Part shown: piece by piece, positions 9,542 to 35,118 of the stretch
How the letters are laid out: each line of letters starts with the position of its first letter
Position numbering within the stretch: the first letter of the stretch is position 1
NCBI GenBank assembly: GCA_963767365.1
Contig: CAVYEE010000030.1
Location: 132,475 to 196,474 of the forward strand
Reading direction: 5' to 3'
DNA: 64,000 nt
From: an uncultured Peptococcaceae bacterium
GTDB lineage: Bacteria; Bacillota; DSM-12270; Thermacetogeniales; Thermacetogeniaceae
The notes under the pieces: model-generated
Database searches by the model: none
What the model saw: only the letters and a program-made list of their open reading frames with translations
What the model was told of the DNA's origin: nothing
Position numbers and translations under genes: made by a program

Positions 9542-9570
9542 GCTTTTTTCTCCCTTCCCTTCAGCTATAT

Positions 9571-12845: not shown

Positions 12846-12908
12846 ATTAACACTCCCCTGCCTAAAGTGGCTCACCTACAACCGGACAACCATCTAAAAA
12901 TGCTTTCT

Positions 12909-13040
12909 TTACCGATGGCTACCCGCTCTAATGCCCCCGCTTCTAAAGCGGTGGGATAAGAGCGGCTACGCCCCTAATTAACTGGCTCTAATCTTCAGTG
13001 GGGGAGGCAATCCCCCTCTGAAGCCAAGACCCAGTTGAAT
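12909..13040 (+). repeat. structured dispersed repeat, family A, copy A1
   Basis: TTACCGATGGCTACCCGCTCTAATGCCCCCGCTTCTAAAGCGGTGGGATAAGAGCGGCTAC...CTTCAGTGGGGG..CCCCCTCTGAAGCCAAGACCCAGTTGAAT. It has the same two-module architecture as the other 7 copies. Confidence 0.85.
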
Positions 13041-14709: not shown

Positions 14710-14858
14710 GGGAAGCACTTCCATCCCATTGCCGATGCTTCAAACAATAACAGCGGATAGACTCTTCCTTTTTCAGGAGAGCCTATCCGCTATCCATCTG
14801 TCCCGAAGCTCGACAGCATCAAGAAAGTTATTGCCGGCTTCAGACCGCCGGAACAGGT

Positions 14859-15374
14859 TCAAAGACAGTTTCCTAGCAGGTAATCACACACCGGAAGCAC
14901 CGTGTCCTGAAGTTTCCGGGACAGTCCCGGAGCAACCTCCTCGGGGATAGATTGCGGTTCAACGGCAACAAGCAGCACATCGAGCTGACACTGGTGCTTC
15001 ATCTCTTTTAAAAGGCTGGATGTTGGCAGATGGTGCAGCGAAAAATCGCCGCCTTTAACCGAAGGGAAATCTTCAACAGGCCTCACGGACACTTCTCCCG
15101 GCTGTCTTCCTGCAATCATGGTGTCTATGGCGACTATTTTTTGCGGTCTGATGGGGGACAAGGCAACAGTACACAGGATATCCCTGATGCCAGTCCCCAC
15201 ATCCAGGATGCAGACATCATCCGGCACTTTGCAATGAGTTTGGAGATGCGCAGCTACGGCCGGACCGAAGCCGTCGTCACCAAAGAGGATGTTTCCGCAT
15301 CCCAAGACGAGCACACGACTCCTGCAGAATTCTGGGATACAATCTTCAATAGATACGCCTGGCCTGCTCATCAC
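14859..15374 (-). CDS. [NiFe] hydrogenase maturation endopeptidase
   Basis: It has VLVLGCGNILFGDDGFGP and a later ...H motif. It lies directly downstream of the large subunit with a 4-nt overlap. Confidence 0.8.
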   Translation of the reverse strand: MMSRPGVSIEDCIPEFCRSRVLVLGCGNILFGDDGFGPAVAAHLQTHCKVPDDVCILDVGTGIRDILCTVALSPIRPQKIVAIDTMIAGRQPGEVSVRPVEDFPSVKGGDFSLHHLPTSSLLKEMKHQCQLDVLLVAVEPQSIPEEVAPGLSRKLQDTVLPVCDYLLGNCL

Positions 15375-16811
15375 TCTGTTATTGTCCCGGCCAGGTTCCC
15401 ATTACAGTCAAAGACGTCTATCTTGACGGGGATCCTGGCATCAAGACTATGAGTCGCGCATGATAGGCACGGATCATAGGCCCGAATTGCCATTTCTACG
15501 GTGTTAAGCACTCCCTGGTCATATTGACCGCCTTTGATGTTGTCCTGAGCCGCTTTCTTGACCGACATATTGATGGCGGCATTGTTGTGGGTTGTTCCCA
15601 CAATAATATTGACGTCCGTCACTATGCCTTTCTCATCAGTCTGGTAGTCATGAATGAGCGTCCCGCCGAGGCGCCTCCACCACTCCAATGCCCCGGGCAG
15701 CCCGGGGGCTGACCGCTTTTCTGGTATTCGGATCTGTGATCTCGGGATCATTCAAAAGTTCGATCGCCCTTTCCGCCGCATACACCGACTCGATCAGTCT
15801 TGCCCAATGATAGAGCAGAGTTAATTGGGTTGGCCTCCCGAAGCTTGCCCTGAACTCCTCCAGTTCTTTGTTGGCAAGAGGCGTGGCGATGCGGTCACAC
15901 ACGTTGATTCTGGCCAGGGCGTTCGTCCTGTAGATACCGATCGGGTTAGCCAGGTCCATGGAGAAGGGTTCTGCTGCTTTCCGGTAATAGGGGAACTTCA
16001 TGTAAGTCCAGGGCTCGACATGTTCGGCAATATAGTCCAGGTACTGCTCGGCGGCAAAGTCTTCGTATGACCCATCCCGGGTCATCATCCGGAGGTTGCC
16101 GTCGTAGAGGTTCAACGCTCCGTCCTTGACCATTCCAAGAAAGCCAGTGCTGATGGGGGCAAAGGACTTGACCAGATCAAGGTACTTGGGGAAGATCTGC
16201 GTCTTGGCAAAGTCAATGGCAAAAGTAGTGAAATCCAGGCATTCCTCGGCCATACCCTTCAGGCGTTCGACCTCATCCTTAGTAACTGGCTTGCTCCAAC
16301 CCCCGGGAACGGAGACATCGGGGTGGATGGCCTTTCCGCCCAGAATTTGAGTCATCATCTGGGCTAAAAATCTGGTGCGTACCACTCGCTTAGCCAAGTC
16401 GGGAGCCCTCTGGACAATGCCTACCACATTCCTGATGGAGTAATCGGCATCCGGTCCCAGGACAAAGTCTGGTCCTGATAGGATGAAGAAATGCAACACG
16501 TGGCTGGAGATGAAATGGGCCATGTAGGCAAGCTCGCGCAGCTTCTTTGCCGCTGACGGTATCTCTACCCCGAAAACGGCATCGCAAGCCTTGGAGGATG
16601 CCAAATGGTGTGCCCAGGGACAGACACCACAGATACGGCACACAATGCGAGGCAGTTCCTCGACCGGCCGGCCGATGCAAAATCTTTCAAATCCCCTCAG
16701 TTCAACCACGTTGACCTTCGCATCAGCGACATTTCCCTGGTCATCGAGTTGAATCGTAACCTTGGCATGACCTTCAATCCTTGTTACAGGCTGAATTACA
16801 ATCTGCTTCAT
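15371..16811 (-). pseudogene. mvhA: [NiFe] hydrogenase large subunit (Mvh/F420-non-reducing type); apparent 1-nt frameshift near 15665
   Basis: The N-terminus has RIEGH and RICGVCPWAHH, and the C-terminus has DPCLSCATH. ORFs 15648..16868 and 15371..15751 join at the conserved EAPRG/TLIHDY motif if one C is removed. The start is ATG 16811, after AAGGAAGGAG. Confidence 0.8.
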
Positions 16812-16827
16812 GGCAATTTCTCCTTCC

Positions 16828-17751
16828 TTATTTTGTCGGTGTGGGCCGGAGCCGTCCCACCACACCAATGAACCGGTTAAAAGTGGCCGCCCGATCCTCT
16901 ATTTCCTTGACATCGAGCCCAATGCTCGAGAGGGCGCCCATCATATCGACCATCGGGTTAGCTCCGGCCCGGATGGGACCGAAACAACCACGGCAGGCCA
17001 TATAAGCCTTGATACAGCGAGGGGTTTTTTCCGACCCACCACAGCCAGACCTTGTTGCCGGTCCCAGGCAGAGGAAGCCCTGTTCCATCAGGCAGCGCAC
17101 CTCATTCATGGGTTGACCCGGCACGAACTCAGCATTCTCAAGCGGCCTCTTCAACTTCACTACAGCCTTCTTCTCCCTCCTGGTAGGGCAGTCGTCGCAG
17201 ACACTCCTCTCTGCAAGGGCGAAAGGCTTCCCCGCCAAGAGGCTGGTCAAGGCCTCAGCAATTAATTCAGGCGTGGGTGGACAGCCAGGCAACTGGACAT
17301 CAACCTTGACAACCTCACTCACTGAATATACCCTGTCCATGAAGGGGGGGATATCTGCAGCCGGGGTATCCGCCGGTTCGGTGCTGCTCGTGCCCCGGTA
17401 GACTTTATCGAAGATATCCTGTGTGGTGGACAGATTGCCTAAAGCTGGTATGCCGCCAAAGTTGGCACAGGAGCCGATGGCAATCAGTGTCTTACACTTG
17501 TTGCGCAGTTCCACGGCCACCTGTTTATTCTCCTCGGTACGGATGCCCCCGCTGATGATCCCCACATCGGCCTCCGGGATTTCCAGAGTGCTTTTCTCTC
17601 CCATTTGCCCATAATACTTATGGTCCATGAGCACGGGCATATGGACAAACTCCAACTCGGGCAACAAATCCAGCAATGGCTCTCCTATATCGAGAATACT
17701 GACCTCACAACCGCCGCAGGTGGCTAGCCACTCTTCCGCTACTCGCACCAT
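16828..17751 (-). CDS. mvhG: [NiFe] hydrogenase small subunit (MvhG-like)
   Basis: This 307 aa ORF has CGGCEVS, GSCANFGGIP and distal Fe-S Cys clusters, and no Tat signal. That fits a cytoplasmic Mvh-type enzyme. Confidence 0.8.
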   Translation of the reverse strand: MVRVAEEWLATCGGCEVSILDIGEPLLDLLPELEFVHMPVLMDHKYYGQMGEKSTLEIPEADVGIISGGIRTEENKQVAVELRNKCKTLIAIGSCANFGGIPALGNLSTTQDIFDKVYRGTSSTEPADTPAADIPPFMDRVYSVSEVVKVDVQLPGCPPTPELIAEALTSLLAGKPFALAERSVCDDCPTRREKKAVVKLKRPLENAEFVPGQPMNEVRCLMEQGFLCLGPATRSGCGGSEKTPRCIKAYMACRGCFGPIRAGANPMVDMMGALSSIGLDVKEIEDRAATFNRFIGVVGRLRPTPTK

Positions 17752-17776
17752 AGACTTAACCTCCCTTCAGTTATTT

Positions 17777-17962
17777 TCACTCTCCTACCGCTTGAACCAC
17801 TCTTCTCGTGAATAAAAAGCATTGTCCACCATCCTCGATCATCTCGACATCAAATCCATCACTGCTGTATTTTTGCATCCCCTCCTCCGCCTCTTGACGA
17901 CCTGGATAGGTCATTCCATCCCACATAAATTTCTTTCCGCTGAACGTCTTTACCAGGTCCAT
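17777..17962 (-). CDS. small hypothetical protein (61 aa) inside the hydrogenase/Hdr operon
   Basis: A good RBS (GAGGTGA, 4 nt before the ATG) precedes it, and it sits tightly between mvhD and mvhG. I recognised no family. Confidence 0.5.
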   Translation of the reverse strand: MDLVKTFSGKKFMWDGMTYPGRQEAEEGMQKYSSDGFDVEMIEDGGQCFLFTRRVVQAVGE

Positions 17963-17988
17963 AACATCACCTCAAAAAGTAAGTAGTA

Positions 17989-18405
17989 CTACATTTTAAA
18001 TGGGCTAGGCCCCAGAGCCTTTACTTGAGCTGTCATCTCGGTGACAACCTCGGCAAACCTGGGCGCCTCGGATGCCGATACCCATTCCAGCCTGAATCTC
18101 TCTTCTTCAATGCCCATGTCCTGCATCATCAGCTTGATGGCATCGGCCCTGGTTTGCGCCTTCAGGTTTCCCTCCAGGTAATGGCAATCTCCAATATGAC
18201 AGCCGCAAACAAGCACTCCGTCAGCGCCTTTAGTCAAAGCATCGATGATCAGGTTTGGATGCACCATCCCACTGCACATAACCCTGATGATCCGGATATT
18301 CGGCGGATATTGGAGCCGGGAAACTCCTGTCAGATCCGCCCCCGCATAAGAGCACCAGTTGCAGCAGAAGGTCACAATCAATGGTTCAAAAGTTTCTGTA
18401 CTCAT
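17989..18405 (-). CDS. mvhD: MvhD-type [2Fe-2S] hydrogenase/Hdr electron-transfer subunit (Cys form)
   Basis: This 138 aa ORF has [12 protein letters not shown]...RVMCSG...VCGCHIGDCHY. Confidence 0.85.
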   Translation of the reverse strand: MSTETFEPLIVTFCCNWCSYAGADLTGVSRLQYPPNIRIIRVMCSGMVHPNLIIDALTKGADGVLVCGCHIGDCHYLEGNLKAQTRADAIKLMMQDMGIEEERFRLEWVSASEAPRFAEVVTEMTAQVKALGPSPFKM

Positions 18406-21400
18406 TTTATCAACGCCGCCTCCACCATAGCTTCAATCTGGTCCAGCCTGAAATTCCGCACGATAATACCCCTCTTGGGACAGGTAGCCTGACAGACGCC
18501 ACAGCCCCGGCACTTGGCGGGGTCTGACTCCACCGTCTTTTTAACGCTGCCGTCTTTCATGTACTCGATCAGGGTGAGGGCATCGTAGGGACACGGGTCA
18601 ATACAGTAGGCACAGCCGTCGCAATTCTCGTCCACCACCTGGGAGACCCTCGGGTCAAGCTCCATCCGGCGCTTGGAAAGCACTGTGGAGGCCCGGGCTG
18701 CGGCAGCGCCTGCCTGAACCAGGCTCTCAGTCAAAGACTTGGGCCCGTGCGCCAAACCACAGAAGAAGATCCCCTCATAGGCAAAATCCACCGGCCTGAG
18801 CTTCATGTGGGCTTCCAGGAAGAATCCGTCCTGTGTCAAGGGCAGCTTGAGCTTCTTGGCCAGGGCGCCGCTGTCATTCTGAGGCGTCATGCCGGTGGAT
18901 AAGATAACGGCATCGCAGTCAATATTGAGCTTCATATTCAGCAATTCATCATCCACCGCTACTGCAAGATGCCCGTTTGCGGCTGCTAATTCAGGCTTGT
19001 GGGCGGCATTGAAACGGATAAACCGCACTCCCGCTTCCCGCGCCTGACGATAATAGGCTTCATTGAAGCCGTAGGTGCGGATATCGTGGTTGAGGATGAA
19101 GACGCTGGCTTGCCGGTTCCTTTCCTTGATCTTCAGGGCGTTCTTCACCGCTTGTGAGCAGCATACCCGGCTGCAATAACCTCCCGGTGACTCGCACGGG
19201 CCAACACACTGCACCATAACAACCGAGTTTGCTTTGAAGGCGCCGCCGCTCAGTTGCTCCTCCAACTCAAGCTGGGTCATTACCCTCTGGTCTTGACCAT
19301 AGAGATATCCCTGGGGCTCATACTCTTTAGCGCCGGTAGCCACTATGGCAGCCCCGTGCTCCAGCACACGGCGCTCGCCATCTGCCTGGAACTCCGTCTT
19401 AAAGTTGCCCACCGACCCCTGGAAGTCAAGAATCTCGGCATTGGTGTAGATCTGGATCTTGGGATGAGCGGTTACCCTCTGGACCAGGGCATCCAGCATC
19501 TCCTGGGGATTATCGCCGTTCATCATGAATTTCAGACGGCGGGCATTGCCTCCTAGTTGTGGGCCCTTTTCCAGCAGGTAAGTCTGGAAGCCTTCCTCTG
19601 CCAGGTTAAGGGCAGCCGTCATCCCCGCCATGCCACCCCCGATGACCAGACCCCTGGGAACGACTTCGATGAACTGCGGGTATAGCGGCTCCAGCAATCT
19701 TGCCTTCGCCGCAGCCATTCTGACCAAGTCTTTTGCCTTTTCGGTCGCAGCCACCGGTTCATGCATGTGCACCCAGGAACACTGGTCACGGATATTGGCC
19801 ATCTCAAAGAGACAGGGATTGAGCCCGGCCTCCCGCAAGGTATCCTGGAAAAGCGGCTCATGGGTTCTTGGTGTGCATGAGGCGACGATAACCCGGTTCA
19901 GGTTATGCTCCTCAATTTTCTGCTTGATCGCCTGCTGCGTATCGGTGGAGCAGGTGTACAGGTTATCTTCGGCATAGACGACGTCAGGTAATGTTTTTAC
20001 GTATTCAACGACCTCGGGGACATTGACCACCGCTCCAATGTTCCGTCCACAATGGCAGACAAAGATACCAATCCGTGGTTCTTCTCCAACCACGTTCCTT
20101 TCCGGCGGATATGTCTTGTCACGGATCAGGGCGCCCCTCTCATCGGCAAGAAGACACATCACCTTGGCGGCTGCCGCTGAAGCCTCCATGACGCTCTCCG
20201 GAATATCCTTAGGCCCGGAAAACATGCCGGTCACGTAAATGCCGGGCTTTGAAGATTCAGTCGGCGCCAATTCCCGGGTACTGGCAAAACCGTACTCGTT
20301 AAGGTCAATGCCAAAGGTCCGGGCCAGTGAGGCGCTCTCAGATAATGGCTTTACTCCTACAGAGAGAACGATCAGGTCGAACTCGTCGCTCGCTACCTGA
20401 CCATCCTCCTGCTGGTACTGGATGGTCAGATTTTTTGTCGCCGGAATCTCCTTGACCGCTGAAGGGCGAGACCGGATGTAGCTGACGCCGAGTTCCTTGG
20501 CCCGGTGATAGTAAGCCTCGTAGCCCTTGCCGAAGGCCCGCATATCGATATAGAAAATGGTGCAGTCGGTATCAGGAGCATGCTCCTTGACAATGACAGC
20601 CTCCTTGGTGGCATACATGCAACAGATTGAAGAGCAGTATTCGTGGTCCACTTCCCACGAGCCCACGCATTGAATAAAGGCTATTTTCCTTGGCGGCTTG
20701 AGGTCGGAGGGGCGAAGGACATGACCCATGTGGGGGCCGCTTGCCGAAAGCAACCGTTCAAACTGGAGGCTGGAGACAACATTGGGATACCGCCCGTAGC
20801 CGAGTTCCTGCCTGGGTACCGGGTCGACGGTCTCGTAGCCGGGTGCCAGGATCACGGCGCCTGCCTCGATCTCGACGATTTCGTCCTCCTGATCGTAGTC
20901 GATCGCCTTTGGCCCGCAGAAGTTCTCGCAGGTCCGGCAGGCATCCTGACCATCCCTGAGAAAATGCATGCAGGTAGTCCGGTCAATGACCGGTACCTTG
21001 GGTATGGCCTGGGCGAAGGGAATGTAAATCGACCGTCTCCCGGCAAGGCCCTCATCGTATTCGGAGAGGATTGGCCGCGGCTTATTCCTAGTGATTTTTG
21101 CCAGATCGATTGCTCCGGTGGGGCACACTGTCACGCAGGCGCCACAGGTGACACAGGCGTCGGAAAACTCGCCGAAAGGCGGGCTGACCTTCCTCTTATG
21201 GCCGCGGCCGACGAAATCAATGGCGCCGACCTTCATCCTTTCCCGGCATACCCGGACGCAAAGCCCACACAGGATGCACTGCTCATTCTCATCCGGTTGG
21301 AAGCGCCGCATGAACGCCTCGTCGACACCGATTTCCCCTGCCAGTTCTTTCAGCTTGGGGACATCTGGGCAACGCAGGAGCAGCAGTTCCATCACGAGCC

Positions 21401-21647
21401 GGCGCGCCGCCATGACGCGGGGAGATGCCGTCTGGACCTCCATCCCTTCCTCTACCGGGGCGGCGCAGGAAGCAGTCAGTTCTCTGCCATTGACTTCCAC
21501 CAGGCACAAACGGCAGGCTCCCTGTGGGAGCAAGGCTTTATGATAGCAGAGGGTGGGGATCCTGATGCCGGCCAACTCGGCGGCCTGCAGGATGGTTGTT
21601 CCCGGCTCTGCCTGGACGGGCCTCCCGTCAATGTTCAACTTCAGCAT
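18402..21647 (-). CDS. giant fusion: NuoG/HndD-like 2Fe-2S+4Fe-4S N-terminus + N-terminally truncated HdrA unit + complete HdrA unit
   Basis: This is an intact ORF of about 1081 aa starting at ATG 21647, after GGAGGAG. The N-terminus reads MLKLNIDGRPV...CYH...CRLCLVEV. The sequence then picks up HdrA at EYDEGLAGRRSIYIPFAQAIPKVPVID... A second full HdrA unit follows (FVCHCGRNIG...GLVIGGGMAGM...FFLEAHMKLRPV...). Confidence 0.8.
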   Translation of the reverse strand: MLKLNIDGRPVQAEPGTTILQAAELAGIRIPTLCYHKALLPQGACRLCLVEVNGRELTASCAAPVEEGMEVQTASPRVMAARRLVMELLLLRCPDVPKLKELAGEIGVDEAFMRRFQPDENEQCILCGLCVRVCRERMKVGAIDFVGRGHKRKVSPPFGEFSDACVTCGACVTVCPTGAIDLAKITRNKPRPILSEYDEGLAGRRSIYIPFAQAIPKVPVIDRTTCMHFLRDGQDACRTCENFCGPKAIDYDQEDEIVEIEAGAVILAPGYETVDPVPRQELGYGRYPNVVSSLQFERLLSASGPHMGHVLRPSDLKPPRKIAFIQCVGSWEVDHEYCSSICCMYATKEAVIVKEHAPDTDCTIFYIDMRAFGKGYEAYYHRAKELGVSYIRSRPSAVKEIPATKNLTIQYQQEDGQVASDEFDLIVLSVGVKPLSESASLARTFGIDLNEYGFASTRELAPTESSKPGIYVTGMFSGPKDIPESVMEASAAAAKVMCLLADERGALIRDKTYPPERNVVGEEPRIGIFVCHCGRNIGAVVNVPEVVEYVKTLPDVVYAEDNLYTCSTDTQQAIKQKIEEHNLNRVIVASCTPRTHEPLFQDTLREAGLNPCLFEMANIRDQCSWVHMHEPVAATEKAKDLVRMAAAKARLLEPLYPQFIEVVPRGLVIGGGMAGMTAALNLAEEGFQTYLLEKGPQLGGNARRLKFMMNGDNPQEMLDALVQRVTAHPKIQIYTNAEILDFQGSVGNFKTEFQADGERRVLEHGAAIVATGAKEYEPQGYLYGQDQRVMTQLELEEQLSGGAFKANSVVMVQCVGPCESPGGYCSRVCCSQAVKNALKIKERNRQASVFILNHDIRTYGFNEAYYRQAREAGVRFIRFNAAHKPELAAANGHLAVAVDDELLNMKLNIDCDAVILSTGMTPQNDSGALAKKLKLPLTQDGFFLEAHMKLRPVDFAYEGIFFCGLAHGPKSLTESLVQAGAAAARASTVLSKRRMELDPRVSQVVDENCDGCAYCIDPCPYDALTLIEYMKDGSVKKTVESDPAKCRGCGVCQATCPKRGIIVRNFRLDQIEAMVEAALIK

Positions 21648-24600
21648 GGCTCTCACTCCTCCGCCAGTCGTCCTTGGTAGCTGCTGCCAGATCACAACGA
21701 AGACAACGCCGGGCCTCTTTAATGGCCATCTCTTCAGTTAAACCTAGCTCCACCAAATTGAAGTTGTTTACTCTCTGGGACACCTCGGCACAAGGCATGG
21801 GAAAACGCTTCGCCTCAAGATCTTCCTCTGTCCGCGGGACCGGTTCCACATAAGGTGATGGCTGAGTAACGGTGTATTCATGCCTCACCGATTGACCCCG
21901 CAGGAACCTGTGGATACTGGCCGCGGCTAACTTACCGCTGGCTATGGAATCAGCAATGGTGGAAGGCCCGGTCACGGCATCGCCGGCGGCAAAGATACCC
22001 TCTCGTCCCGTAGCCAGGGTTTCCGGATAAATTACAATCGTGTTGCGATTGGATAGCTCCAACCCATGCCCGGGAGGCAGGAAGGAGAGGTCGGGTTCCT
22101 CACCGACAGCCAGGATGAGAGTATCTACCTGGCGAACGGATTCAGACCCCTTGATGAGGACTGGCAGGCGTCGGTCAGTCTCATCATATTCTCCCAATTC
22201 CACATCGAGACACTCGATGCCGCTCAACTTGCCATCACTGGCAACAATCCGGGAGGGGGCGCAGAGTTCGATGATCTTTATCCCTTCCTCAACCCCGGCT
22301 TCGATCTCTCGTTTCATGGCCGGCATTTCTGCCTTGCTTCTTCGGTAGATGATGGAGACATCCTTAGCGCCGGCTCGCAGGGCGGTACGGGCGGCATCAA
22401 TCGCCGCGTTGCCGCCGCCGATGACCCCCACCTTCTCGCCCAGCAGGACGCTGTTGCCTGCCTTAATTGCCTTCAGAAAGTCAAAAGCATACATTACACC
22501 GGGGGTATCTTCACCGGGCAGACCTAATCTCAAACTCCTGTGGGCACCTACAGCCAGGAGGATCGCTTTATAATCCCTGGCAAAAAGGTTGTCAAAGGTC
22601 AGATCCGGCCCTACAGGCGTATTGGTAAGGATTTCTATACCGGCCTGCCTGATGCAATCAATTTCTTGATCCAGGATATTTCGCGGCAAGCGATACTCCG
22701 GGATAACCATCGCCAGGTTTCCGCCCACAACGGAGCCCGCCTCAAAAATAGTGGGCTGGTAACCCAGTCGTGCCAGATCGAAAGCCGCAGCTAGGCCGGC
22801 CGGGCCGGAGCCAACAATGGCTATTTTCTCCAGCTTGGACGTCTCGGGGTTAGGCAACGGTTTCAAGCCGTTCTTGAGGGCATAATCGCCAACAAAGCGT
22901 TCAGGGCCTTGATGGATATCGATTCACCACCGGTCTCAAGAGAGCGGCACCGCTCCTCGCAGGGATGGTGGCAGATATAGCCGCAAGTGATTGGCAGAGG
23001 ATTCGGCCTGCGGATCACGTCGAAGGCTTCCCGGTATTCTTTCCTGGCAATATGGGCAACAAAGGTTGGCACATCGGTTTTCACCGGGCAATTGTATTTG
23101 CAAGGGGTGAAGATTATCTTCTTGCACACCATGGCGGGGCAGCGCTTGTACTTGATGTGCTGTTCATATTCATCCCGGAAATAGCGGGTGGTGGTCAGGA
23201 CCGGGTTGGGCGCCGAATTTCCCAGGCCGCACAGCGAGGAATCGATGATTACCCCGGCCATCTGCTCCAACAGCTCGATGTCGCCCTCCCGTCCGCGCCC
23301 TTCGGTGATGTCGGTGAGGATTTCCAGCATCCTTTTCGTCCCTTCACGGCAGGGAGTGCATTTACCGCAGGATTCATCCACGGTAAAGGTGAGAAAGTAC
23401 TTGGCCACGTTGACCATGCAGGTGTCCTCATCCATCACCACCATGCCACCCGAACCCATGATGGAGCCAGCCCCGGCCAGGGTCTCGTAGTCTGCCGAAA
23501 GATGCGCCAACCGCGCTGGGATACAGCCTCCCGAGGGACCGCCGGTCTGCACTGCCTTGAACCTCTTCCCAGCGGGAATGCCTCCGCCGACATCATAGAC
23601 AAGCGACTTCAGGCTGATGCCCATGGGCACTTCCACCAGCCCGGTGTTATTCACCTTTCCCACCAGGGAGAAGACTACCGTCCCCTTGCTCCGTTCCGTA
23701 CCCACGGCAGAGAACCAGTCACTCCCCCGGACGATAATCAGCGGGACATTGGCCCAGGTTTTAACATTGTTCAGGAGGGTCGGCTTGCCCCAGAGCCCGC
23801 TTTCTGCCGTCCGTGGCGGGCGCTGGCGCGGCTCCCCCGCCAAACCCTCGATTGAGGCGATCAGGGCGGTGGCTTCCCCGCAAACAAAAGCGCCGGCGCC
23901 CTCCTTGATCTGCAGGTGGAAGCTGAAGTCTGTGCCGAGGATCTTGTCTCCCAGCAATCCCAGCTCCTCCGCCTGGGCGATGGCGATCGTCAAGCGCCTG
24001 ATTGCCAGCGGGTACTCCGCCCGGCAGTAAATATAGCCTTCCGTGGCCCCAATGGCATAAGCGCCGATGATCATCCCCTCGATGACGCTGTGTGGGTCAC
24101 CCTCGAGAATGCTCCGGTCCATGTAGGCTCCAGGGTCGCCCTCGTCTGCGTTGCAGATGATATATTTGAGGCTGCCTTTAGCCCGACGGCATGTAGCCCA
24201 TTTTCTTCCGGCGGGAAAACCGGCGCCTCCCCTCCCCCGTAAACCCGAGTTGGTCACCTGTTGGATTATTTCCTCGGGCTTCAATTGATGGAGCGCCTTA
24301 TAGAGCGCAAAATACCCTCCACCGGCAATGTACTCCGTAATCTGTTCGGGATCGATGAGGCCGCAATTCCGCAGGATCCGCTTCTCTTGTTTGCTAAAGA
24401 AAGGTAAATCGGCATAGTCGGGGATCTCTTCAATTTCCGCCGGCAGCGTGCCCAAAGGGTAGCTTCTGACCGTATCCTCAAGCAGATTTACCTCTTCCCT
24501 GATCTTGCAGAGAAGGTACTTGGGAAGAATACGCCCGTCAGCCAGGGCGTCAATGATTTCCCTTGCTTTTCCTTCGTCCACCTTGGCGTAAATAATTCTC

Positions 24601-24848
24601 GGCCAGCCGGGCCTGGTGATATCTACAATGGGTTCTTTCTCACAGAACCCCAGGCAGCCGGTGCTGGTAACCATGCAGTCCAGGTTGCTGCTGGCGACCT
24701 CCTGCTGGATCGCTGCCAGGACTTCCGTAGCGCCCGCTGCGCGGCCACAACTGGCCATCCCTACCGCAATCTTGGTCGAGGCCGGGAAAAGAGAATGTAG
24801 ACCATCTTCCTTAAGCTGATTGAGGTCTTCCAAATTGCAGATCCTCAT
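21628..24848 (-). pseudogene. NuoF-like FMN/NADH module fused to GltD/NfnB-like FAD subunit; apparent 1-nt frameshift near 22901
   Basis: ORF 22863..24923 has NuoF motifs (GRGGAGFP, CGKCTPCREG) followed by a GltD N-terminal Fe-S domain. It runs into ORF 21628..22866 as ...GESISIKAL/ERFVGDYALKNGLKPLPNPETSKLEKIAIVGSGPAGL... after correcting one missing nucleotide. The start is ATG 24848. Confidence 0.75.
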
Positions 24849-25295
24849 CTTCACCACTCCCATATTTTGCCAAAACTTCTTTGACCAACTCCGGCCGCAT
24901 ATGGGCATATACTTGCTGATCAACCTGGATGACCGGCGCTAGGGCGCAACAACCGAGACACCGCACAATTTGCAGGCCGAACTTCCCGTCGGGAGTGACT
25001 TCGCCGGGCTTGATCTCCAGGGCTCTTTCCAGTTCATCCAGGATTCTGTCCGATCCGCGCACGAAGCAACTAGTGCCCTGGCAGATATTGATGACATGTT
25101 TGCCTTTCGGTTTGAGACTGAAAACGAGTAAAACGTAGCCACCTTCAAGATAGCGGCGAGAGGAATGTCGAGTTCTTGCGACACATGACGCAATACAGGC
25201 TCCGGCAGGTAGTTGAACTCTTTTGAATATCCTGAAGCACACTGATGAGTGGGCCGGCCTCGGCAACGGCGGTTGATAATGTCGTCAACTTTCAT
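24811..25295 (-). pseudogene. NuoE-like [2Fe-2S] thioredoxin-fold subunit; several apparent indels (about 25122, 25221, 25269)
   Basis: The conserved NuoE/HydC string can only be read by frame hopping: MKVDDIINR / VAEAGPLISVLQDIQK / EFNYLPEPVLRHVSQELDIPLAAILKVATFYS / FSLKPKGKHVINICQGTSCFVRG...CLGCCALAP. Confidence 0.65.
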
Positions 25296-25329
25296 TCGCC
25301 CTTCAGCCGGTAAGCCCGTTTCCTTCTGT

Positions 25330-25718
25330 TCAGGCTTGGGGTAAGATCGGTATTGGACCAGGCAATTTTGGGCGCATTCCCCACAGCCGGTGCATTTGTC
25401 CGGGTCAACCGAACGTGCTTTTTTCCTAATCCGGACACGGAACCGGCCCGGTGTTCCCTCAATATCAATTACCTCCGCATAAGTCAGCTTCTCGATGTTG
25501 ATGTGCCTGCCGCAGTCAACCATCCTGGGCGCTAAGGTGCACATGGCGCAATCATTCGTCGGGAAGGTCTTGTCGAGCTGGGCCATCACGCCGCCAATGG
25601 CGGGGTCCTTCTCCACCAGGTAAACCTTGAAACCAGATTCGGCCAGGTCAAGGGATGCCTGCATCCCGGCAATGCCGCCCCCCACCACCAGCACCGCGCC
25701 CACCTTTTGATCAGGCAT
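25330..25718 (-). pseudogene. hdrA: orphan HdrA N-terminal fragment (Rossmann GGGIAG + DKTFPTNDCAMC + first ferredoxin motif only)
   Basis: MPDQKVGAVLVVGGGIAGMQASLDLAESGFKVYLVEK...QLDKTFPTNDCAMC...CTGCGECAQNC, after which HdrA similarity stops. As sequenced, the frame runs on into nuoE. One extra C would give ...NCPGPIPILPQA-stop at 25330. Confidence 0.6.
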
Positions 25719-26583
25719 ATTGCGTCACCTCCAGCAGTCTGTCCGCCGTTATAAAATTATTTCCGAGCATCAGTTCCTGCGAAGAGAGCCCAAGACCGAT
25801 CCCCATCAATTGAGTGAAATAAAGAATGGGCAACTCATAGTTCATACCATAAGCCGTTTTAATTTCTTTCTGGCGCGTATCTAAATTCATATGGCAGAGT
25901 GGGCAAGCAACAGCTATCACATCGGCGCCCACCGACCTGGCCCCTTCCAGGATCTCATGGCAGAGTTTCAACACGATGTCTGTCCTTGTCGTAGCGAAAG
26001 AAGCCCCGCAGCAATCTGTCTTATAGGACCAGTCCAGGGTAACGATGCCCAGCGCCCTTAATATTTGGTCCATGCTTTCCGGATACTCACAGGCATCAAA
26101 CTGGACGACCTTCGGCGGTCTGGTCAGGAGGCACCCGTAATAGCAAGCCACTTTGAGGTCGTTTAATTCTCGTTTCACCAGGCGGGAAATTGTCGTCAAG
26201 AGAGGCTCTTGGGAGAACAACTGGAGCGGGTGATAAACCGCCACGTCGTCGCTCCATGAGCCTTTGACGACTTGCTTCGCCTCTTCTTTCAGGCCGGCGT
26301 CATTTTTCACATCGTGCAGAGCCGACTTGAAGCGTGAGAAGCAAGAGGCGCAGGGAACGACGACCTCCCTGAGTCCCATCCTTTCAATAATGGCCAGGTT
26401 GCCCAATGGCAGGGCCGTAGCAAGCAACCTGGAGACACTGTGAGCCGGAGTCGTGCCGCAGCAGAACCAGTCCTTGACCTCCTCCAGTTCAATATCCAAC
26501 TGGCTACAGACCTTGCGAAGAGACAAATCGTATTCTTTTGCGTAGGAATGCAAAGAGCAACCAGGGTAATAGGCGTATCTCAT
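25711..26583 (-). CDS. hdrB: heterodisulfide reductase subunit B (two CCG domains)
   Basis: This 290 aa ORF has YYPGCSL...WFCCGT and ...YYGCLLTRP...TDCCGA. Confidence 0.88.
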   Translation of the reverse strand: MRYAYYPGCSLHSYAKEYDLSLRKVCSQLDIELEEVKDWFCCGTTPAHSVSRLLATALPLGNLAIIERMGLREVVVPCASCFSRFKSALHDVKNDAGLKEEAKQVVKGSWSDDVAVYHPLQLFSQEPLLTTISRLVKRELNDLKVACYYGCLLTRPPKVVQFDACEYPESMDQILRALGIVTLDWSYKTDCCGASFATTRTDIVLKLCHEILEGARSVGADVIAVACPLCHMNLDTRQKEIKTAYGMNYELPILYFTQLMGIGLGLSSQELMLGNNFITADRLLEVTQYA

Positions 26584-27155
26584 ATCTTCCCCCTACTCTT
26601 TTCCCTGCGTTTGACTTGGGAAAATATTCTCCTTGCTGATGATGCCCCATTAAAGCTGGGCAAGAGATTCAGCTTTCCCTTTTTCAGCATCTCCAACCCC
26701 AGCCCCACATCCTTCGTAAAGCTGCGGGTGGAGACCTTGAAAGCAGCCATTAACCCCAGGTCGTACATCCGGCCGAAAAGTCTGATGCTATATAAGGCAC
26801 TCTGATTAAAGATCGGGATTTCGGGGACTTTAGCCTTGATCTTCTGACGCTGGGCAAGTATCCTGACGGCATCCATTACCGCAGCAATGTCCACGTCCTG
26901 CGGGCACCGGGTGGTGCATGTCTGACATGAAGCACAGAGCCAGATTGTTTTGCTTTTGAAGACGAGATCGCTCAATCCTAACTGGATCGCATGGAGTATT
27001 TGCGGAGGCGTATAATCCATGGCATAGGCAACTGGACACCCGCTAGCACACTTTGTGCATTGGAAACACGAGTTGACATTAACGCCGCTGACATTTCTCA
27101 AGGTTTCAGCAAAATTGGAGAATCCTTGCGCAACACTAAAGGTTTGTTTAATCAT
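26580..27155 (-). CDS. hdrC: heterodisulfide reductase subunit C
   Basis: It has two 4Fe-4S motifs (CFQCTKCASGCP, CASCQTCTTRCP). I prefer ATG 27155, after a GGAGG/GGGGAG-rich RBS, over GTG 27185. Confidence 0.85.
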   Translation of the reverse strand: MIKQTFSVAQGFSNFAETLRNVSGVNVNSCFQCTKCASGCPVAYAMDYTPPQILHAIQLGLSDLVFKSKTIWLCASCQTCTTRCPQDVDIAAVMDAVRILAQRQKIKAKVPEIPIFNQSALYSIRLFGRMYDLGLMAAFKVSTRSFTKDVGLGLEMLKKGKLNLLPSFNGASSARRIFSQVKRREKSRGKI

Positions 27156-27185
27156 CTCCCCACCTGCCTCCCCGTTTATGACCAC

Positions 27186-27345
27186 TAACGTTTACTATAA
27201 CTGCAGTTTACTATGGTATTAGGATAATCACTAATTATATTTCGAGATGCTACCATAAGATATTACTATTATTAAGTTTTGATATGATACCATAAGATAT
27301 TGTTACTATTATTAATTTTTGATATACTGCCATAAGATATTTTTA
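27186..27345 (-). promoter_or_regulatory. AT-rich promoter/operator cassette C1 (three direct operator repeats + TATAAT)
   Basis: In the minus sense it reads 3 x ATATCTTATGGnnnnATATCAAAA at a period of about 40 nt. The last repeat abuts TATAAT, followed by CCATAGTAAAC-n5-TTATAGTAAACGTTAG immediately upstream of hdrC. Confidence 0.6.
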
Positions 27346-27369
27346 TATAATTCCGTGGCCGCTTCCGGG

Positions 27370-28272
27370 CTACAGCACCTGCTCCTGGCAGAATTTGATG
27401 AAATCCTCCCTGATACTGAAGGGGTCATAAAGATCATCCAAGTTATCCAAAAAGATAAAATTAAACTCCCTGAGCATCCGGAAGTCGTCGATGGGAACAA
27501 TTTTAATGGTCTGGTTGGCTACGGGTTGCTTCAAAACCTCCCTGGAGAGGATGGTGCACCCCAGGTTGGACTCCACCAGGGAAACGATCGCCGTGATATC
27601 CCCGATCTCTATGTAAACGCTATCTTCATTCAACCTGTGCCCGGCCCGCCGCAGACAGTCCTCGATCACCATTCTGGTTCCCGAGCCCTTTTCTCTCAGA
27701 ATCAACCTGTCTGCCAGCAATTCGTCGATGCTCACGGATTTCTTGCCGGCGAAGGGATGATGCACAGACACCGCCAGCACCAGTTCGTCATCTTTCAACT
27801 TTGCGTAGCGGAACCTCGTTCTGTCAAAAAGACTTTCGATGACCGCCAGATCGATCTCGCCGGCGTATAGTTTTTTGATGATGGTCTCATGGTTGCCGAC
27901 CTGGAGAATGATATCGACGCTTTCCTTCTCTTTCTTGTATCTGCCGATGATGTCGGGCAGCACGTAACCGCCGTTCGTAAGGGTGGCGCCCACCCGGTAT
28001 TTCCTGATGATCCCCGGTTTATTGTCCAACATGGCTTTGACGATCTTGCCCAGGCGTTCCGCCTCTGTGGCGTACTGCAGCAAAATTTCGCCTTCCTTGG
28101 TCAACTCCATCTGCCGGTTCTTTTGATAGAAAAGAGGCGCCCGATAGTACTCCTCAAGGAATTTTACGTGCTGGGAAACGGCGGGCTGGGTAAGATTCAG
28201 GAGATTGGCGGCCTTGGTGTAATTATTGGTTTGAGCCACCACAATAAAGGTCTGGATCCTGATGTCGATCAC
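27370..28272 (-). CDS. LysR-family transcriptional regulator (paralog 1)
   Basis: This 300 aa ORF has an N-terminal wHTH (FIVVAQTNNYTKAANLLNLTQPAVSQHVKFLE). It is about 92% nt-identical to 38023..38952. Confidence 0.88.
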   Translation of the reverse strand: MIDIRIQTFIVVAQTNNYTKAANLLNLTQPAVSQHVKFLEEYYRAPLFYQKNRQMELTKEGEILLQYATEAERLGKIVKAMLDNKPGIIRKYRVGATLTNGGYVLPDIIGRYKKEKESVDIILQVGNHETIIKKLYAGEIDLAVIESLFDRTRFRYAKLKDDELVLAVSVHHPFAGKKSVSIDELLADRLILREKGSGTRMVIEDCLRRAGHRLNEDSVYIEIGDITAIVSLVESNLGCTILSREVLKQPVANQTIKIVPIDDFRMLREFNFIFLDNLDDLYDPFSIREDFIKFCQEQVL

Positions 28273-28314: not shown

Positions 28315-28503
28315 TTACCAGATGACTACCCGCTCTAATGCCCCCGCTTCTGCGAAGCGGTGGGATAAGAGCGGCTACGTCACTGTATTAACGATTTCTA
28401 AGCTGCAGCGGGGGAAGACAATCTCCGCTGCAGCCAAGAACTCGTTGAATGATAATTCAGTGGGGGAAAGCAAACCCCCACTGAAGCCAAGAACTAGTTG
28501 AAC
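28315..28503 (+). repeat. family A repeat, copy A2 (3' hairpin module duplicated)
   Basis: Module 1 is canonical. Module 2 is present twice: CTGCAGCGGGGG...CCGCTGCAGCCAAGAACTCGTTGAAT, then TTCAGTGGGGG...CCCCCACTGAAGCCAAGAACTAGTTGAAC. Confidence 0.85.
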
Positions 28504-28764: not shown

Positions 28765-28846
28765 TAACGTTTACTATAACTAAAGTTTACTATGGCATAA
28801 CGATAATCACTAATTATATTTTGATATGCTCCCATAAGATATTTCT
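28765..28846 (-). promoter_or_regulatory. AT-rich promoter/operator cassette C2 (single unit)
   Basis: In the minus sense it reads ATATCTTATGGGAGCATATCAAAATATAATTAGTGATTATC...CCATAGTAAACTTTAGTTATAGTAAACGTTA. It lies about 490 nt upstream of lysR paralog 1. Confidence 0.5.
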
Positions 28847-31690: not shown

Positions 31691-31696
31691 CTGATG

Positions 31697-35073: not shown

Positions 35074-35118
35074 TTCTTTTTAGACTCATTACTTTTTACT
35101 TTTTCACTCATTACATTT

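What the first reader, a model, noticed from the sequence alone, without database searches (positions are those of the whole stretch)
14859..27185. Eleven-gene operon joining Hdr, Mvh-type [NiFe] hydrogenase, NuoEF and GltD/NfnB-like modules
All genes are co-oriented with overlaps or very small gaps. The order is hdrC, hdrB, hdrA-N fragment, nuoE, nuoF-gltD fusion, 2Fe2S-HdrA-HdrA giant fusion, mvhD, a 61-aa ORF, mvhG, mvhA and a protease. The cluster thus combines three flavin sites known from electron-bifurcating enzymes: HdrA FAD (twice), NuoF/HydB FMN and NfnB/GltD FAD. It also carries a cytoplasmic hydrogenase and the HdrBC disulfide site. Each module is individually well known, as in MvhADG-HdrABC, NfnAB and HydABC. 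I am not aware of a characterised complex with all of them in a single transcription unit. The predicted chemistry would couple H2, NAD(P)H, ferredoxin and a disulfide such as DsrC or an unknown thiol.
Basis: partly seen in the sequence, partly recalled or inferred. Interest (0 to 1): 0.7.

Follow-up and report, generated by a model that had tools for sequence, protein, structure and literature searches.

The report
Hydrogenase operon wiring two bifurcation modules
This is a real ten-gene operon, conserved across several bacterial phyla, in which gene fusions tie a hydrogen-splitting enzyme, a disulfide reductase and an NAD(P)H-linked module into what looks like one uncharacterised energy-coupling complex.

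Summary
The cluster is real and lies on the minus strand at about 27155-14859. The window carries five single-base indels at short base runs. Once these are corrected it resolves into 10 genes, not 11: hdrC, hdrB, hdrA(N-terminal piece)-nuoE fusion, nuoF-gltD fusion, a 1081-aa fusion protein, mvhD, a conserved 61-aa gene, mvhG, mvhA and hycI.

The new point is the anatomy. The HdrA here is a BamE-like fused HdrA dimer. It is split exactly inside its inserted ferredoxin domain. A HydC/HydB/HydA-type (Bfu) module plus an NADPH-type GltD domain sits in the gap, fused in frame at both ends.

At least 120 protein clusters each were listed for the two fusion proteins. Named relatives are Anaerolineae, Dehalococcoidia, Phycisphaerae/Planctomycetota and TA06 MAGs. 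All predicted Fe-S ligands are invariant. The same gene order recurs in every context examined, across several phyla.

Best reading: one soluble supercomplex. H2 from Mvh is bifurcated at the HdrA flavin, HdrBC takes the high-potential electron, and the low-potential branch is hard-wired into the Bfu/GltD module. Wiring and direction are inferred, not shown.

The closest characterised system is class II benzoyl-CoA reductase (Hdr plus Bfu modules). I found no description of this architecture in seven literature searches. I class it as a new variant of a known kind.

The parts
27186..27369 (-). AT-rich upstream region holding three tandem copies of the 17-bp motif ATATCTTATGGNAGNAT, at 27247-27263, 27284-27300 and 27324-27340. 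Probable promoter/operator.
   Evidence: Seven matches in the window against 0.08 expected by chance. Three more copies lie at 37790-37937, between a second LysR gene and a second Hdr-like cluster. Sequence shown.
27370..28272 (-). LysR-family regulator directly upstream and co-oriented. Candidate regulator of the operon.
   Evidence: Pfam HTH_1 plus LysR_substrate. Its link to the repeated motif is inferred from position.
26580..27155 (-). hdrC, 191 aa from the ATG at 27155. Carries two CxxCxxCxxxCP motifs.
   Evidence: Pfam Fer4_8/Fer4_17. NCBIfam best match is CoB_CoM_SS_C, below cutoff. SD-like GGGGAG lies before the ATG.
25711..26583 (-). hdrB, 290 aa, with both CCG domains. All ten Cys that align with the noncubane-cluster motifs of methanogen HdrB are present.
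   Evidence: Pfam CCG x2. Full-length alignment to 8rvu_b and 5odc_B, E 1e-37 to 1e-39.
24811..25718 (-). hdrA(N)-nuoE fusion, 302 aa after correcting three indels at ~25265, ~25222 and ~25122. Residues 9-122 match HdrA residues 146-259: FAD Rossmann start, the CxxC, and the first Cys motif of the inserted ferredoxin domain. Residues 143-288 match HydC/NuoE with its [2Fe-2S] site.
   Evidence: correction; PDB; at least 120 clusters of 285-303 aa fusion proteins; invariant Cys 57, 60, 109, 112, 115, 119, 214, 219, 255, 259; AF2: NuoE half confident, HdrA piece not.
21628..24848 (-). nuoF-gltD fusion, 1073 aa after restoring one A at ~22900. It comprises a HydB-type N-terminal thioredoxin-like [2Fe-2S] domain, the FMN/NADH core, the N3-type [4Fe-4S] site and the conserved H..CPAxxC hinge. 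The usual C-terminal 2x[4Fe-4S] domain is replaced by a GltD/NfnB-type 2x[4Fe-4S] plus FAD/NADPH module.
   Evidence: PDB best matches: 7t2r_B (E 2e-214), 8oh5_B, 9n5u_B. GltD part matches 9bov_A residues 102-567 and 8oh5_C residues 102-566.
18402..21647 (-). 1081-aa fusion protein. Residues 1-185 are a HydA/NuoG-like [2Fe-2S] plus 2x[4Fe-4S] module. Next come the second half of the inserted ferredoxin domain and the rest of the first HdrA flavin domain (TrxR1). A second HdrA unit follows: N-terminal cluster domain, a second flavin domain (TrxR2) without the CxxC, and a C-terminal 2x[4Fe-4S] domain.
   Evidence: PDB mapping to 5odc_A, 9mqx_A, 8a6t_A; colinear with a 999-aa tandem HdrA from residue 107; at least 120 clusters of 1077-1101 aa, nearly all carrying Fer2_4; all Fe-S Cys invariant; K348 aligns with HdrA position 409.
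17989..18405 (-). mvhD, 138 aa, [2Fe-2S] adaptor.
   Evidence: Pfam FlpD, E 2e-55. An identical protein occurs on five other contigs.
17777..17962 (-). Conserved 61-aa gene of unknown role. Always lies between mvhD and mvhG.
   Evidence: Homologues occupy the same position in L005-L007, L010, L012, L017 (Phycisphaerae) and L018 (TA06-like). Eighteen clusters, no Pfam or NCBIfam match. AF2 pLDDT 89, beta-beta-alpha-beta-beta fold, no PDB analogue.
16828..17751 (-). mvhG, 307 aa. Full-length small subunit aligning along the whole Mvh-type protein.
   Evidence: 5odc_E residues 1-264, E 2e-61. The NiFe-Bfu small subunit 7t2r_E matches only the first 175 residues.
15371..16811 (-). mvhA, 479 aa after removing the extra G at ~15666. 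[NiFe] large subunit with RICGVC and DPCLSC motifs.
   Evidence: PDB matches: 7t2r_D (4e-129), 9sw2_F and 5odc_F (1e-118 to 1e-122). NCBIfam best match VhuA.
14859..15374 (-). hycI-type hydrogenase maturation protease.
   Evidence: Pfam HycI. NCBIfam hydrog_prot above cutoff.
14740..14815 (-). Strong hairpin followed by GUUAUUGUUU, directly after hycI. Probable terminator.
   Evidence: MFE -62 kcal/mol for the 131-nt stretch (window 14730-14860) that contains the hairpin, z-score -6.6 against shuffles. A cupin gene follows on the opposite strand.

Best explanation
The ten genes encode one soluble multi-flavin, multi-Fe-S supercomplex built around a BamE-like fused HdrA dimer.

Shown by sequence:
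- The first HdrA flavin domain (TrxR1) is split immediately after the first Cys motif of its inserted ferredoxin domain.
- The N-terminal piece continues in frame into a HydC/NuoE subunit.
- The remainder is preceded in frame by a HydA/NuoG-like [2Fe-2S] + 2x[4Fe-4S] module.
- The HydB/NuoF subunit, here carrying a GltD NADPH module in place of its ferredoxin-type C-terminal domain, is encoded between the two.
- The inserted ferredoxin domain must therefore be assembled from two polypeptides. This ties the Bfu module physically to that domain.

Inferred wiring:
- H2 is oxidised at MvhA. Electrons pass through the MvhG Fe-S clusters and MvhD to the bifurcating FAD of TrxR1.
- The high-potential electron goes via HdrC to the two noncubane clusters of HdrB. 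There it reduces an unidentified disulfide.
- The low-potential electron leaves through the split inserted ferredoxin domain. Instead of reducing free ferredoxin, it enters the HydA-like cluster chain and the HydB FMN site.
- There NAD+ is reduced. NADP+ is reduced through GltD, or ferredoxin in relatives that lack GltD.

Net proposal: H2 + disulfide + NAD(P)+ (with or without ferredoxin) gives thiols + NAD(P)H. A two-stage bifurcation cascade of this kind would let H2 at low partial pressure still drive low-potential reductions. The rationale is my own inference.
For: Reality of the genes and fusions:
- Correction of the five indels.
- At least 120 clusters listed for each fusion protein, with tightly conserved lengths.
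- All predicted cofactor ligands invariant.

Split point and colinearity:
- With structurally characterised HdrA.
- With an unsplit tandem HdrA.

Identity of the modules:
- The Bfu parts match bifurcating HydB/HydC/HydA-type subunits best, and the GltD part matches the NADPH domain of NfnABC/StnABC.
- Mvh-type full-length small subunit plus MvhD.
- Intact HdrB ligands.

Operon structure and conservation:
- The same order recurs in L010, L012, L013/L015, L016, L017 and L018, from several phyla.
- Overlapping or 16-26 nt junctions.
- Repeated motif in the upstream region and a hairpin at the end.

Other support:
- AF2 folds the NuoE half confidently (pLDDT 72-90). It does not fold the equally conserved HdrA piece (pLDDT 33-57), as expected for an incomplete domain.
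- The BCRII preprint identifies the inserted ferredoxin domain as the low-potential exit. It places the bifurcating FAD in the first flavin domain of a fused HdrA dimer. It also reports that the HydC-like N-terminal bundle contacts the HydA-like subunit.
Against: - No experiment or structure exists. Wiring, direction and substrates are inferred.
- In BCRII, the only characterised Hdr+Bfu enzyme, the Bfu module is the input. It connects through the C-terminal ferredoxin domain and the MvhD-like adaptor, not through the inserted ferredoxin domain. The linkers here, about 15-30 residues, do not exclude such an arrangement.
- Putting GltD where HydB normally binds ferredoxin gives a port arrangement with no characterised precedent. 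Bifurcation at the FMN site may not be retained.
- Sending low-potential electrons to NAD(P)+ looks energetically wasteful unless ferredoxin or a second coupling is involved.
- The disulfide substrate is unknown. HdrB scores about equally against SdhE-type quinol:fumarate reductase anchors.
- Three of the five indel corrections rest on an 87%-identical homologue rather than on a near-identical sequence.
Confidence: 0.45

Rival explanations
1. BCRII-like wiring. The Bfu/GltD module is an electron input, confurcating NADH with NADPH or ferredoxin. It feeds the HdrA bifurcating FAD through the C-terminal ferredoxin domain and MvhD. Mvh is then an alternative input, or the outlet for H2 production. 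The inserted ferredoxin domain still serves a free ferredoxin or another partner.
For: This is how the only characterised Hdr+Bfu enzyme works. The fused HdrA dimer, MvhD and the three-cluster HydA-like module all have BamE, BamF and BamI counterparts. MvhA and NuoF both have their best PDB matches in NiFe-HydABCSL.
Against: Both covalent junctions of the Bfu module sit at the inserted ferredoxin domain, not at the C-terminal domain. MvhG is the long Mvh type, the form found alongside MvhD in Mvh-Hdr complexes. Two inputs converging on one port would leave the low-potential exit with no encoded partner.
Confidence: 0.25
2. Non-bifurcating diaphorase reading. The NuoE/NuoF/GltD part simply makes the enzyme an NAD(P)+-linked hydrogenase, Hox-like. 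HdrBC-HdrA would then act as a thiol/disulfide-linked side branch or redox sensor, not as a second energy-coupling site.
For: The ferredoxin-binding C-terminal domain that defines bifurcating HydB is missing in the window's protein and replaced by GltD. Homologues of NuoF occur in many non-bifurcating enzymes.
Against: NuoF keeps the N-terminal thioredoxin-like [2Fe-2S] domain and the hinge motif of bifurcating HydB, and matches bifurcating enzymes best. Relatives L010 and L016 keep the canonical ferredoxin-type domain in the same operon. The CxxC, Lys348 and every HdrA and HdrB cluster ligand are invariant across phyla.
Confidence: 0.15
3. Several independent enzymes are merely co-transcribed: Mvh-Hdr plus a separate Nfn/Stn-like transhydrogenase.
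For: Each module is known as a stand-alone enzyme.
Against: HdrA cannot be complete without both fusion proteins. The inserted ferredoxin domain and the FAD domain are divided between polypeptides that also carry Bfu subunits. The arrangement is conserved in every context examined.
Confidence: 0.03
4. The cluster is a decaying pseudogene array in this organism. The frameshifts are real.
For: Five frame-disrupting indels in 12.3 kb.
Against: All five lie at short runs of identical bases (two to four in the window). Two are contradicted by near-identical independent contigs. Genes elsewhere in the window are broken in the same way: AcsC and the second HdrA. Apart from the indels there are no premature stops, and conserved residues are retained. 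The related assembly L005 carries different indels of its own.
Confidence: 0.03

Closest known systems
Class II benzoyl-CoA reductase BamBCDEFGHI of Geobacter metallireducens (Bam-Bfu; bioRxiv 10.64898/2026.04.10.717634; Schut et al. 2022, PMC9304861)
   Same: Combines a HydBC/Bfu-type module (BamGHI) with a fused HdrA dimer (BamE), an MvhD-like adaptor (BamF) and an HdrBC-like subunit (BamD) in one complex. The first flavin domain carries the bifurcating FAD next to a CxxC. The HydA-like subunit holds one [2Fe-2S] and two [4Fe-4S] clusters.
   Different: There is no tungsten BamBC here; an Mvh [NiFe] hydrogenase is present instead. HdrB and HdrC are separate and keep both noncubane ligand sets, whereas BamD has a degenerate distal cluster. 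HdrA is split and covalently fused to the HydC- and HydA-like parts at the inserted ferredoxin domain. A GltD NADPH module is added.
MvhADG-HdrABC of methanogens (PDB 5ODC and related entries)
   Same: Has MvhA, the full-length MvhG, MvhD, HdrB with two CCG domains, HdrC, and HdrA domains with the same cluster motifs. H2 to disulfide plus a low-potential acceptor is the template reaction.
   Different: In methanogens HdrA is one 650-aa chain that dimerises. Here it is a fused dimer, split, and joined to NuoE/HydA-like parts. The low-potential exit is tethered to a Bfu module rather than being free for ferredoxin. The organism is a bacterium, which by general knowledge would not use CoM-S-S-CoB (not checked here).
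NiFe-HydABCSL (NiFe-Bfu) of Acetomicrobium mobile (PDB 7T2R)
   Same: Gives the best PDB matches for both the NuoF part (E 2e-214) and the [NiFe] large subunit (E 4e-129). It is a [NiFe] hydrogenase joined to a Bfu core.
   Different: Its small subunit is only 179 aa. It has no MvhD, HdrA, HdrBC or GltD.
Bfu-type transhydrogenases StnABC / NfnABC (PDB 8OH5, 9BOV, 9N5U)
   Same: Consist of HydC-, HydB- and HydA-like subunits plus a GltD/NfnB-like FAD-NADPH domain. The GltD part here matches theirs best.
   Different: In those enzymes the GltD domain is inserted in the HydA-like subunit. Here it replaces the ferredoxin-type C-terminal domain of the HydB-like subunit. They have no hydrogenase and no Hdr.
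MetFV-HdrABC-MvhD of Moorella thermoacetica, and tandem-HdrA clusters next to acs genes (for example loci L001-L003)
   Same: Bacterial HdrABC/MvhD in Wood-Ljungdahl organisms. The unsplit 999-1003 aa tandem HdrA is 50-66% identical and colinear with the two window proteins.
   Different: No hydrogenase, no Bfu module, and HdrA is not split.

Membership tests
MvhADG-HdrABC (group 3c [NiFe] hydrogenase : heterodisulfide reductase) | [NiFe] large subunit with both N- and C-terminal Cys pairs | tested here: met
   RICGVC and DPCLSC are present after the indel correction. Matches Vhu/MvhA with E 1e-118 to 1e-124.
MvhADG-HdrABC (group 3c [NiFe] hydrogenase : heterodisulfide reductase) | Long Mvh-type small subunit MvhG plus the MvhD [2Fe-2S] adaptor | tested here: met
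   5odc_E aligned over residues 1-281. FlpD Pfam match, E 2e-55. I did not count the cluster ligands in MvhG.
MvhADG-HdrABC (group 3c [NiFe] hydrogenase : heterodisulfide reductase) | HdrB with two complete CCG (noncubane cluster) motifs, and HdrC with two [4Fe-4S] motifs | tested here: met
   All ten Cys aligning with the HdrB cluster motifs are present.
MvhADG-HdrABC (group 3c [NiFe] hydrogenase : heterodisulfide reductase) | HdrA as a single chain of about 650 aa: N-terminal domain, flavin domain with inserted ferredoxin domain, C-terminal ferredoxin domain | tested here: not met
   The HdrA parts are spread over a 302-aa and a 1081-aa protein. They form a fused dimer and are joined to NuoE and HydA-like modules.
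MvhADG-HdrABC (group 3c [NiFe] hydrogenase : heterodisulfide reductase) | Reduces CoM-S-S-CoB and ferredoxin with H2 | not testable with these tools
The substrate disulfide is unknown.
Bfu (HydABC-type) family as defined by Schut et al. 2022 | HydB-like subunit with the FMN/NADH core, an N3-type [4Fe-4S], an N-terminal thioredoxin-like [2Fe-2S] domain and the hinge Cys/His motif | tested here: met
   Alignment to 7t2r_B over residues 34-579, including CGRAAGA...GCLGFCEKEP and HIKYKRCPAMVC.
Bfu (HydABC-type) family as defined by Schut et al. 2022 | C-terminal 2x[4Fe-4S] ferredoxin-type domain on the HydB-like subunit (the ferredoxin site) | tested here: not met
   In the window it is replaced by a Fer4_20/GltD module. 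The canonical domain is present in relatives L010 and L016.
Bfu (HydABC-type) family as defined by Schut et al. 2022 | HydC-like [2Fe-2S] subunit and a HydA-like [2Fe-2S]/[4Fe-4S] subunit | tested here: met
   Both are present but fused to HdrA pieces. Their ligands are invariant.
Class II benzoyl-CoA reductase (BamBCDEFGHI) | Tungsten-pterin BamB and Fe-S BamC catalytic subunits | tested here: not met
   No AOR-type gene lies in or next to the operon. A hydrogenase occupies that role.
Class II benzoyl-CoA reductase (BamBCDEFGHI) | Fused HdrA dimer, MvhD-like adaptor and HydBC-type module in one unit | tested here: met
   The comparison with BamE rests on the published description, not on its sequence.
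Stn/NfnABC Bfu-type transhydrogenase | GltD-like NADPH domain carried by the HydA-like subunit | tested here: not met
   The GltD domain is fused to the C-terminus of the HydB-like subunit instead.

The most novel reading that the evidence does not exclude
This would be a previously unrecognised class of hydrogenase supercomplex, widespread in uncultured sediment and subsurface bacteria. An HdrA-type and a HydBC-type bifurcation site would be wired in series through a ferredoxin domain assembled from two polypeptides. By spending a disulfide, H2 at very low partial pressure could then still generate NAD(P)H and/or reduced ferredoxin. The architecture would have arisen by insertion of a hydC-hydB-hydA operon into a tandem hdrA gene.
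Probability: 0.3. Interest if true: 0.8.

Novelty: new variant of a known kind. Interest (0 to 1): 0.65.

Why it matters
Electron bifurcation is how strict anaerobes make low-potential reductant from weak donors. Only one enzyme is so far known to stack two different bifurcation modules: class II benzoyl-CoA reductase, whose structure was reported in 2026.

This operon family suggests the same design principle is used with H2 as substrate, in abundant uncultured Chloroflexota, Planctomycetota and TA06 bacteria. The MAG papers I checked report such hydrogenases simply as group 3c Mvh/Hdr.

The in-frame fusions give unusually direct genetic evidence for which modules touch. They also give a concrete target for structure prediction, heterologous expression and metatranscriptomics.

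Tried and rejected
- **Genome scan.** The genome-contig scan with the 1097-aa protein found only four loci, with unsplit tandem HdrA at ~50% identity. These served as a colinearity control but gave no synteny.
- **Exact look-ups.** HdrB is not on record. CooS is not in the collection.
- **Selenocysteine read-through** as the cause of the breaks. Rejected: every break changes frame.
- **Consensus promoter/terminator scan.** Counts were not above shuffles, and it missed the hairpin after hycI.
- **Rfam and tRNA scans.** Nothing found.
- **The 61-aa protein.** No Pfam or NCBIfam family, and no Foldseek match in the PDB with E below 0.1.
- **Literature.** Seven searches and targeted reading of 15 papers found no description of this architecture. 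The review by Appel et al. 2021 (10.1016/j.bbabio.2021.148379) is not held, so prior mention there cannot be excluded.
- **NiFe-HydABCSL reading** (hydrogenase docking on the HydA-like module). Considered because MvhA and NuoF match it best. Set aside because MvhG is the long Mvh type and MvhD is present.
- **Structure prediction of a re-joined HdrA or of subunit pairs.** Not possible with the single-chain tool and its input restrictions.

Full report
**Observation**

The apparent fragmentation has a simple cause: hdrA-N running into nuoE, nuoE and nuoF in different frames, nuoF separated from gltD, and mvhA in two pieces. Three-frame translation shows the reading frame switching in mid-domain at each break.

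Five metagenome contigs are 98-99.9% identical to the window. Three of them lack the G at ~15666 and encode an intact 479-aa MvhA. One contig (L005) has the A that the window lacks at ~22900, which makes NuoF-GltD one continuous ORF. Alignment to the 87%-identical intact protein P0001 locates three more indels, at ~25265, ~25222 and ~25122.

All five indels lie at short runs of identical bases. Other genes in the window are broken the same way: AcsC, and the HdrA of a second cluster. The related assembly L005 carries different indels of its own. I therefore treat the indels as assembly errors, not gene decay.

With five single-base corrections the region resolves into ten ORFs: HdrC, HdrB, HdrA(N)-NuoE (302 aa), NuoF-GltD (1073 aa), a 1081-aa fusion protein, MvhD, a 61-aa protein, MvhG, MvhA (479 aa) and HycI. 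The junctions are -4, -8, -38, -20, -4, +26, +25, +16 and -4 nt.

**Boundaries**

Upstream, 214 nt separate hdrC from a co-oriented LysR gene. This AT-rich spacer holds three tandem copies of ATATCTTATGGNAGNAT. The window has seven matches against 0.08 expected. Three of the others lie between a second LysR gene and a second Hdr-like cluster.

Downstream, a strong hairpin with a U-rich tail follows hycI (z = -6.6), and the next gene is on the other strand. The generic promoter/terminator scan found nothing above chance inside the cluster. A single transcription unit is thus well supported by anatomy but not demonstrated.

**Anatomy**

*The 302-aa protein.* Against solved structures, residues 9-122 equal residues 146-259 of methanogen HdrA. 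This covers the start of the FAD domain, the DKTFPTNDCxMC motif and the first CxxCxxCxxxC motif of the inserted ferredoxin domain. Residues 143-288 equal HydC/NuoE.

*The 1081-aa protein.*
- It begins with a HydA/NuoG-like [2Fe-2S] + 2x[4Fe-4S] module. Best matches are 9mqx_A and 8a6t_A.
- It continues with HdrA residues ~260-510: the second half of the inserted ferredoxin domain and the rest of the first flavin domain.
- A second HdrA unit follows. It has an N-terminal cluster domain, a second flavin domain lacking the CxxC, and a C-terminal 2x[4Fe-4S] domain.

*Colinearity with an unsplit HdrA.* A 999-aa unsplit tandem HdrA from a Bacillota MAG is colinear with the two window proteins. Its residues 1-119 match the small protein at 66% identity. 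Its residues 107-998 match the large protein from residue 163 at 50% identity.

*Motif counting.* The large protein has three ferredoxin-type Cys motifs after its [2Fe-2S] site, and the small protein supplies a fourth. Two motifs belong to the HydA-like domain. The inserted ferredoxin domain of HdrA must therefore be built from one motif on each polypeptide.

*The NuoF part.* It matches bifurcating HydB-type subunits best (7t2r_B, E 2e-214). It keeps the N-terminal thioredoxin-like [2Fe-2S] domain and the H..CPAxxC hinge. Where HydB carries its ferredoxin-type 2x[4Fe-4S] domain, this protein continues into a GltD/NfnB-type module. That module is most similar to the NADPH domain of the Bfu-type transhydrogenases NfnABC and StnABC.

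*The hydrogenase and HdrBC.*
- MvhG aligns along the full length of the Mvh-type small subunit. The short NiFe-Bfu small subunit matches only its first 175 residues.
- MvhA has both Cys pairs.
- HdrB keeps all ten Cys that align with the noncubane-cluster motifs.

In short, a hydC-hydB(-gltD)-hydA block sits inside a BamE-like tandem hdrA gene, fused in frame at both ends.

**Conservation**

- The HdrA(N)-NuoE fusion recurs in at least 120 listed 90%-identity clusters of 285-303 aa.
- The large fusion recurs in at least 120 clusters of 1077-1101 aa, nearly all carrying the N-terminal Fer2_4 domain.
- Named members are MAGs of Anaerolineae, Dehalococcoidia/Dehalococcoidales, Phycisphaerae, Sedimentisphaerales, other Planctomycetota and candidate division TA06. 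I saw no cultured isolate.
- The window's MvhD shares a 90%-identity cluster with an Anaerolineae MAG protein. The source is therefore probably a member of the Chloroflexota. This is an inference.
- In alignments of 31 and 28 diverse members, every predicted Fe-S ligand is invariant. So are the CxxC next to the flavin and the Lys that aligns with HdrA position 409.
- Gene order is the same in every context retrieved: L010, L012, L013/L015, L016, L017 and L018.

Variations in relatives:
- GltD is absent in L010 and L016, where HydB keeps its canonical ferredoxin-type domain.
- The Planctomycetota and TA06-like versions carry the HydB N-terminal domain as a separate 127-aa protein.
- Those versions also carry DRTGG, CBS-ATPase and PHP genes between nuoF-gltD and the large gene.

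The 61-aa gene is conserved at the same position across phyla. It is predicted with confidence as a small beta-beta-alpha-beta-beta domain and has no informative structural match.

AlphaFold2 models the NuoE half of the fusion well. It models the equally conserved HdrA piece poorly. This is consistent with an incomplete domain that needs its partner. It is suggestive only.

**Mechanism**

*Shown.* The modules and their covalent connections are established by sequence.

*Inferred from the Mvh-Hdr structures and the BCRII preprint.*
- MvhAG and MvhD deliver H2 electrons to the bifurcating FAD in the first flavin domain.
- HdrC and HdrB are the high-potential exit, to a disulfide.
- The inserted ferredoxin domain is the low-potential exit.

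Both Bfu junctions sit at that domain, and HydC's N-terminal bundle is known to contact the HydA-like subunit. I therefore propose that the low-potential branch is hard-wired into the HydA-like cluster chain and the HydB FMN site. It would reduce NAD+ and, through GltD, NADP+. In GltD-less relatives it would reduce ferredoxin.

One possible rationale is that disulfide reduction lifts the reducing power of H2 at low partial pressure to the level a HydBC-type site needs. This is my inference.

*Rivals.*
- The main rival is BCRII-like wiring, with the Bfu module as a confurcating input.
- A non-bifurcating NAD(P)-diaphorase reading is also open.
- Independent enzymes and pseudogenisation are unlikely, for the reasons given above.

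**Comparison and novelty**

The system is not a canonical MvhADG-HdrABC, because the HdrA architecture differs. It is not a canonical Bfu enzyme in this organism, because the ferredoxin-type domain of HydB is replaced. It is not a benzoyl-CoA reductase, because there is no tungsten subunit. It works most like a hydrogenase-fed counterpart of BCRII.

The Bfu-family survey lists Bam-, NiFe-, Nfn-, Fdh-, Wor-, Codh-, Por-, Mbh-, Nuo- and Rub-Bfu types, but no Mvh-Hdr type. Seven full-text searches and the papers read gave no description of this architecture. One key review could not be accessed.

I class this as a new variant of a known kind. It is of clear interest to the electron-bifurcation field, and its function remains to be shown.

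Noticed in passing
window 27247-27340, 28826-28842, 37790-37937 (minus strand); LysR genes 27370-28272 and 38023-39012: The 17-bp motif ATATCTTATGGNAGNAT occurs seven times against 0.08 expected. Three tandem copies lie downstream of each of two paralogous LysR genes and upstream of each of two Hdr-type clusters. This suggests a shared LysR regulon.
   Followed up: partly
window 29852-36628 (minus strand): A second Hdr-type cluster. It holds an HdrD-like CCG+Fer4 protein, an HdrA-MvhD fusion broken into three ORFs by frameshifts, Fer4_17 and Fer4_22 proteins, and an NAD_binding_1/DHODB-FeS protein. To me it resembles Flx-Hdr type NADH-linked systems (from memory, not tested).
   Followed up: partly
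window 28315-28449, 60618-60748, 52501-52627, 52107-52239, 36603-36732, 12909-13040, plus partial copies at 59779-59862 and 44522-44567; also L005 5453-5587 and L006 2997-3131: A ~135-bp intergenic repeat family at 81-90% identity, with a GC-rich hairpin. In two closely related strains a copy is inserted between the small ORF and mvhG inside the operon, so the element has been mobile recently.
   Followed up: partly
window 739-12875 (minus strand): A Wood-Ljungdahl gene cluster lies just downstream of the operon, beyond a cupin gene and a DegV gene. It contains cooC, cooS/acsA, acsB, acsC (split by frameshift at ~6392-6443), a second cooC, acsD, acsE, a Fer4-MvhD protein and MetV. Relatives L010, L012, L017 and L018 lack this adjacency, so it may be incidental.
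   Followed up: partly
window-wide, for example 5778-7108 and 32837-35027: Frame-breaking single-base indels occur in genes across the window, not only in the operon. This points to an insufficiently polished, error-prone (possibly long-read) assembly.
   Followed up: partly
L013, L015, L017, L018 (Planctomycetota and TA06-like loci): These versions carry DRTGG, CBS-histidine-kinase-like ATPase and PHP genes between nuoF-gltD and the large fusion gene, and a response-regulator gene between the small ORF and mvhG. I recall similar regulator genes in some HydABC operons (from memory, not checked), which would fit a whole hyd-type operon having been inserted into hdrA.
   Followed up: no
L010 1847-7767: In one relative the operon lies next to selB, selD and selA (selenocysteine machinery) and a TusA/DsrE-like gene, with hypF downstream. 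No in-frame TGA was needed to read the window's own genes.
   Followed up: no
window 39654-51813: A beta-oxidation-type gene set: acyl-CoA dehydrogenases, thiolase, enoyl-CoA hydratases, a family III CoA-transferase, an AMP-ligase and a short-chain dehydrogenase, together with a sigma-54 activator. The organism combines fatty-acid or aromatic-type CoA metabolism with the acetyl-CoA pathway.
   Followed up: no
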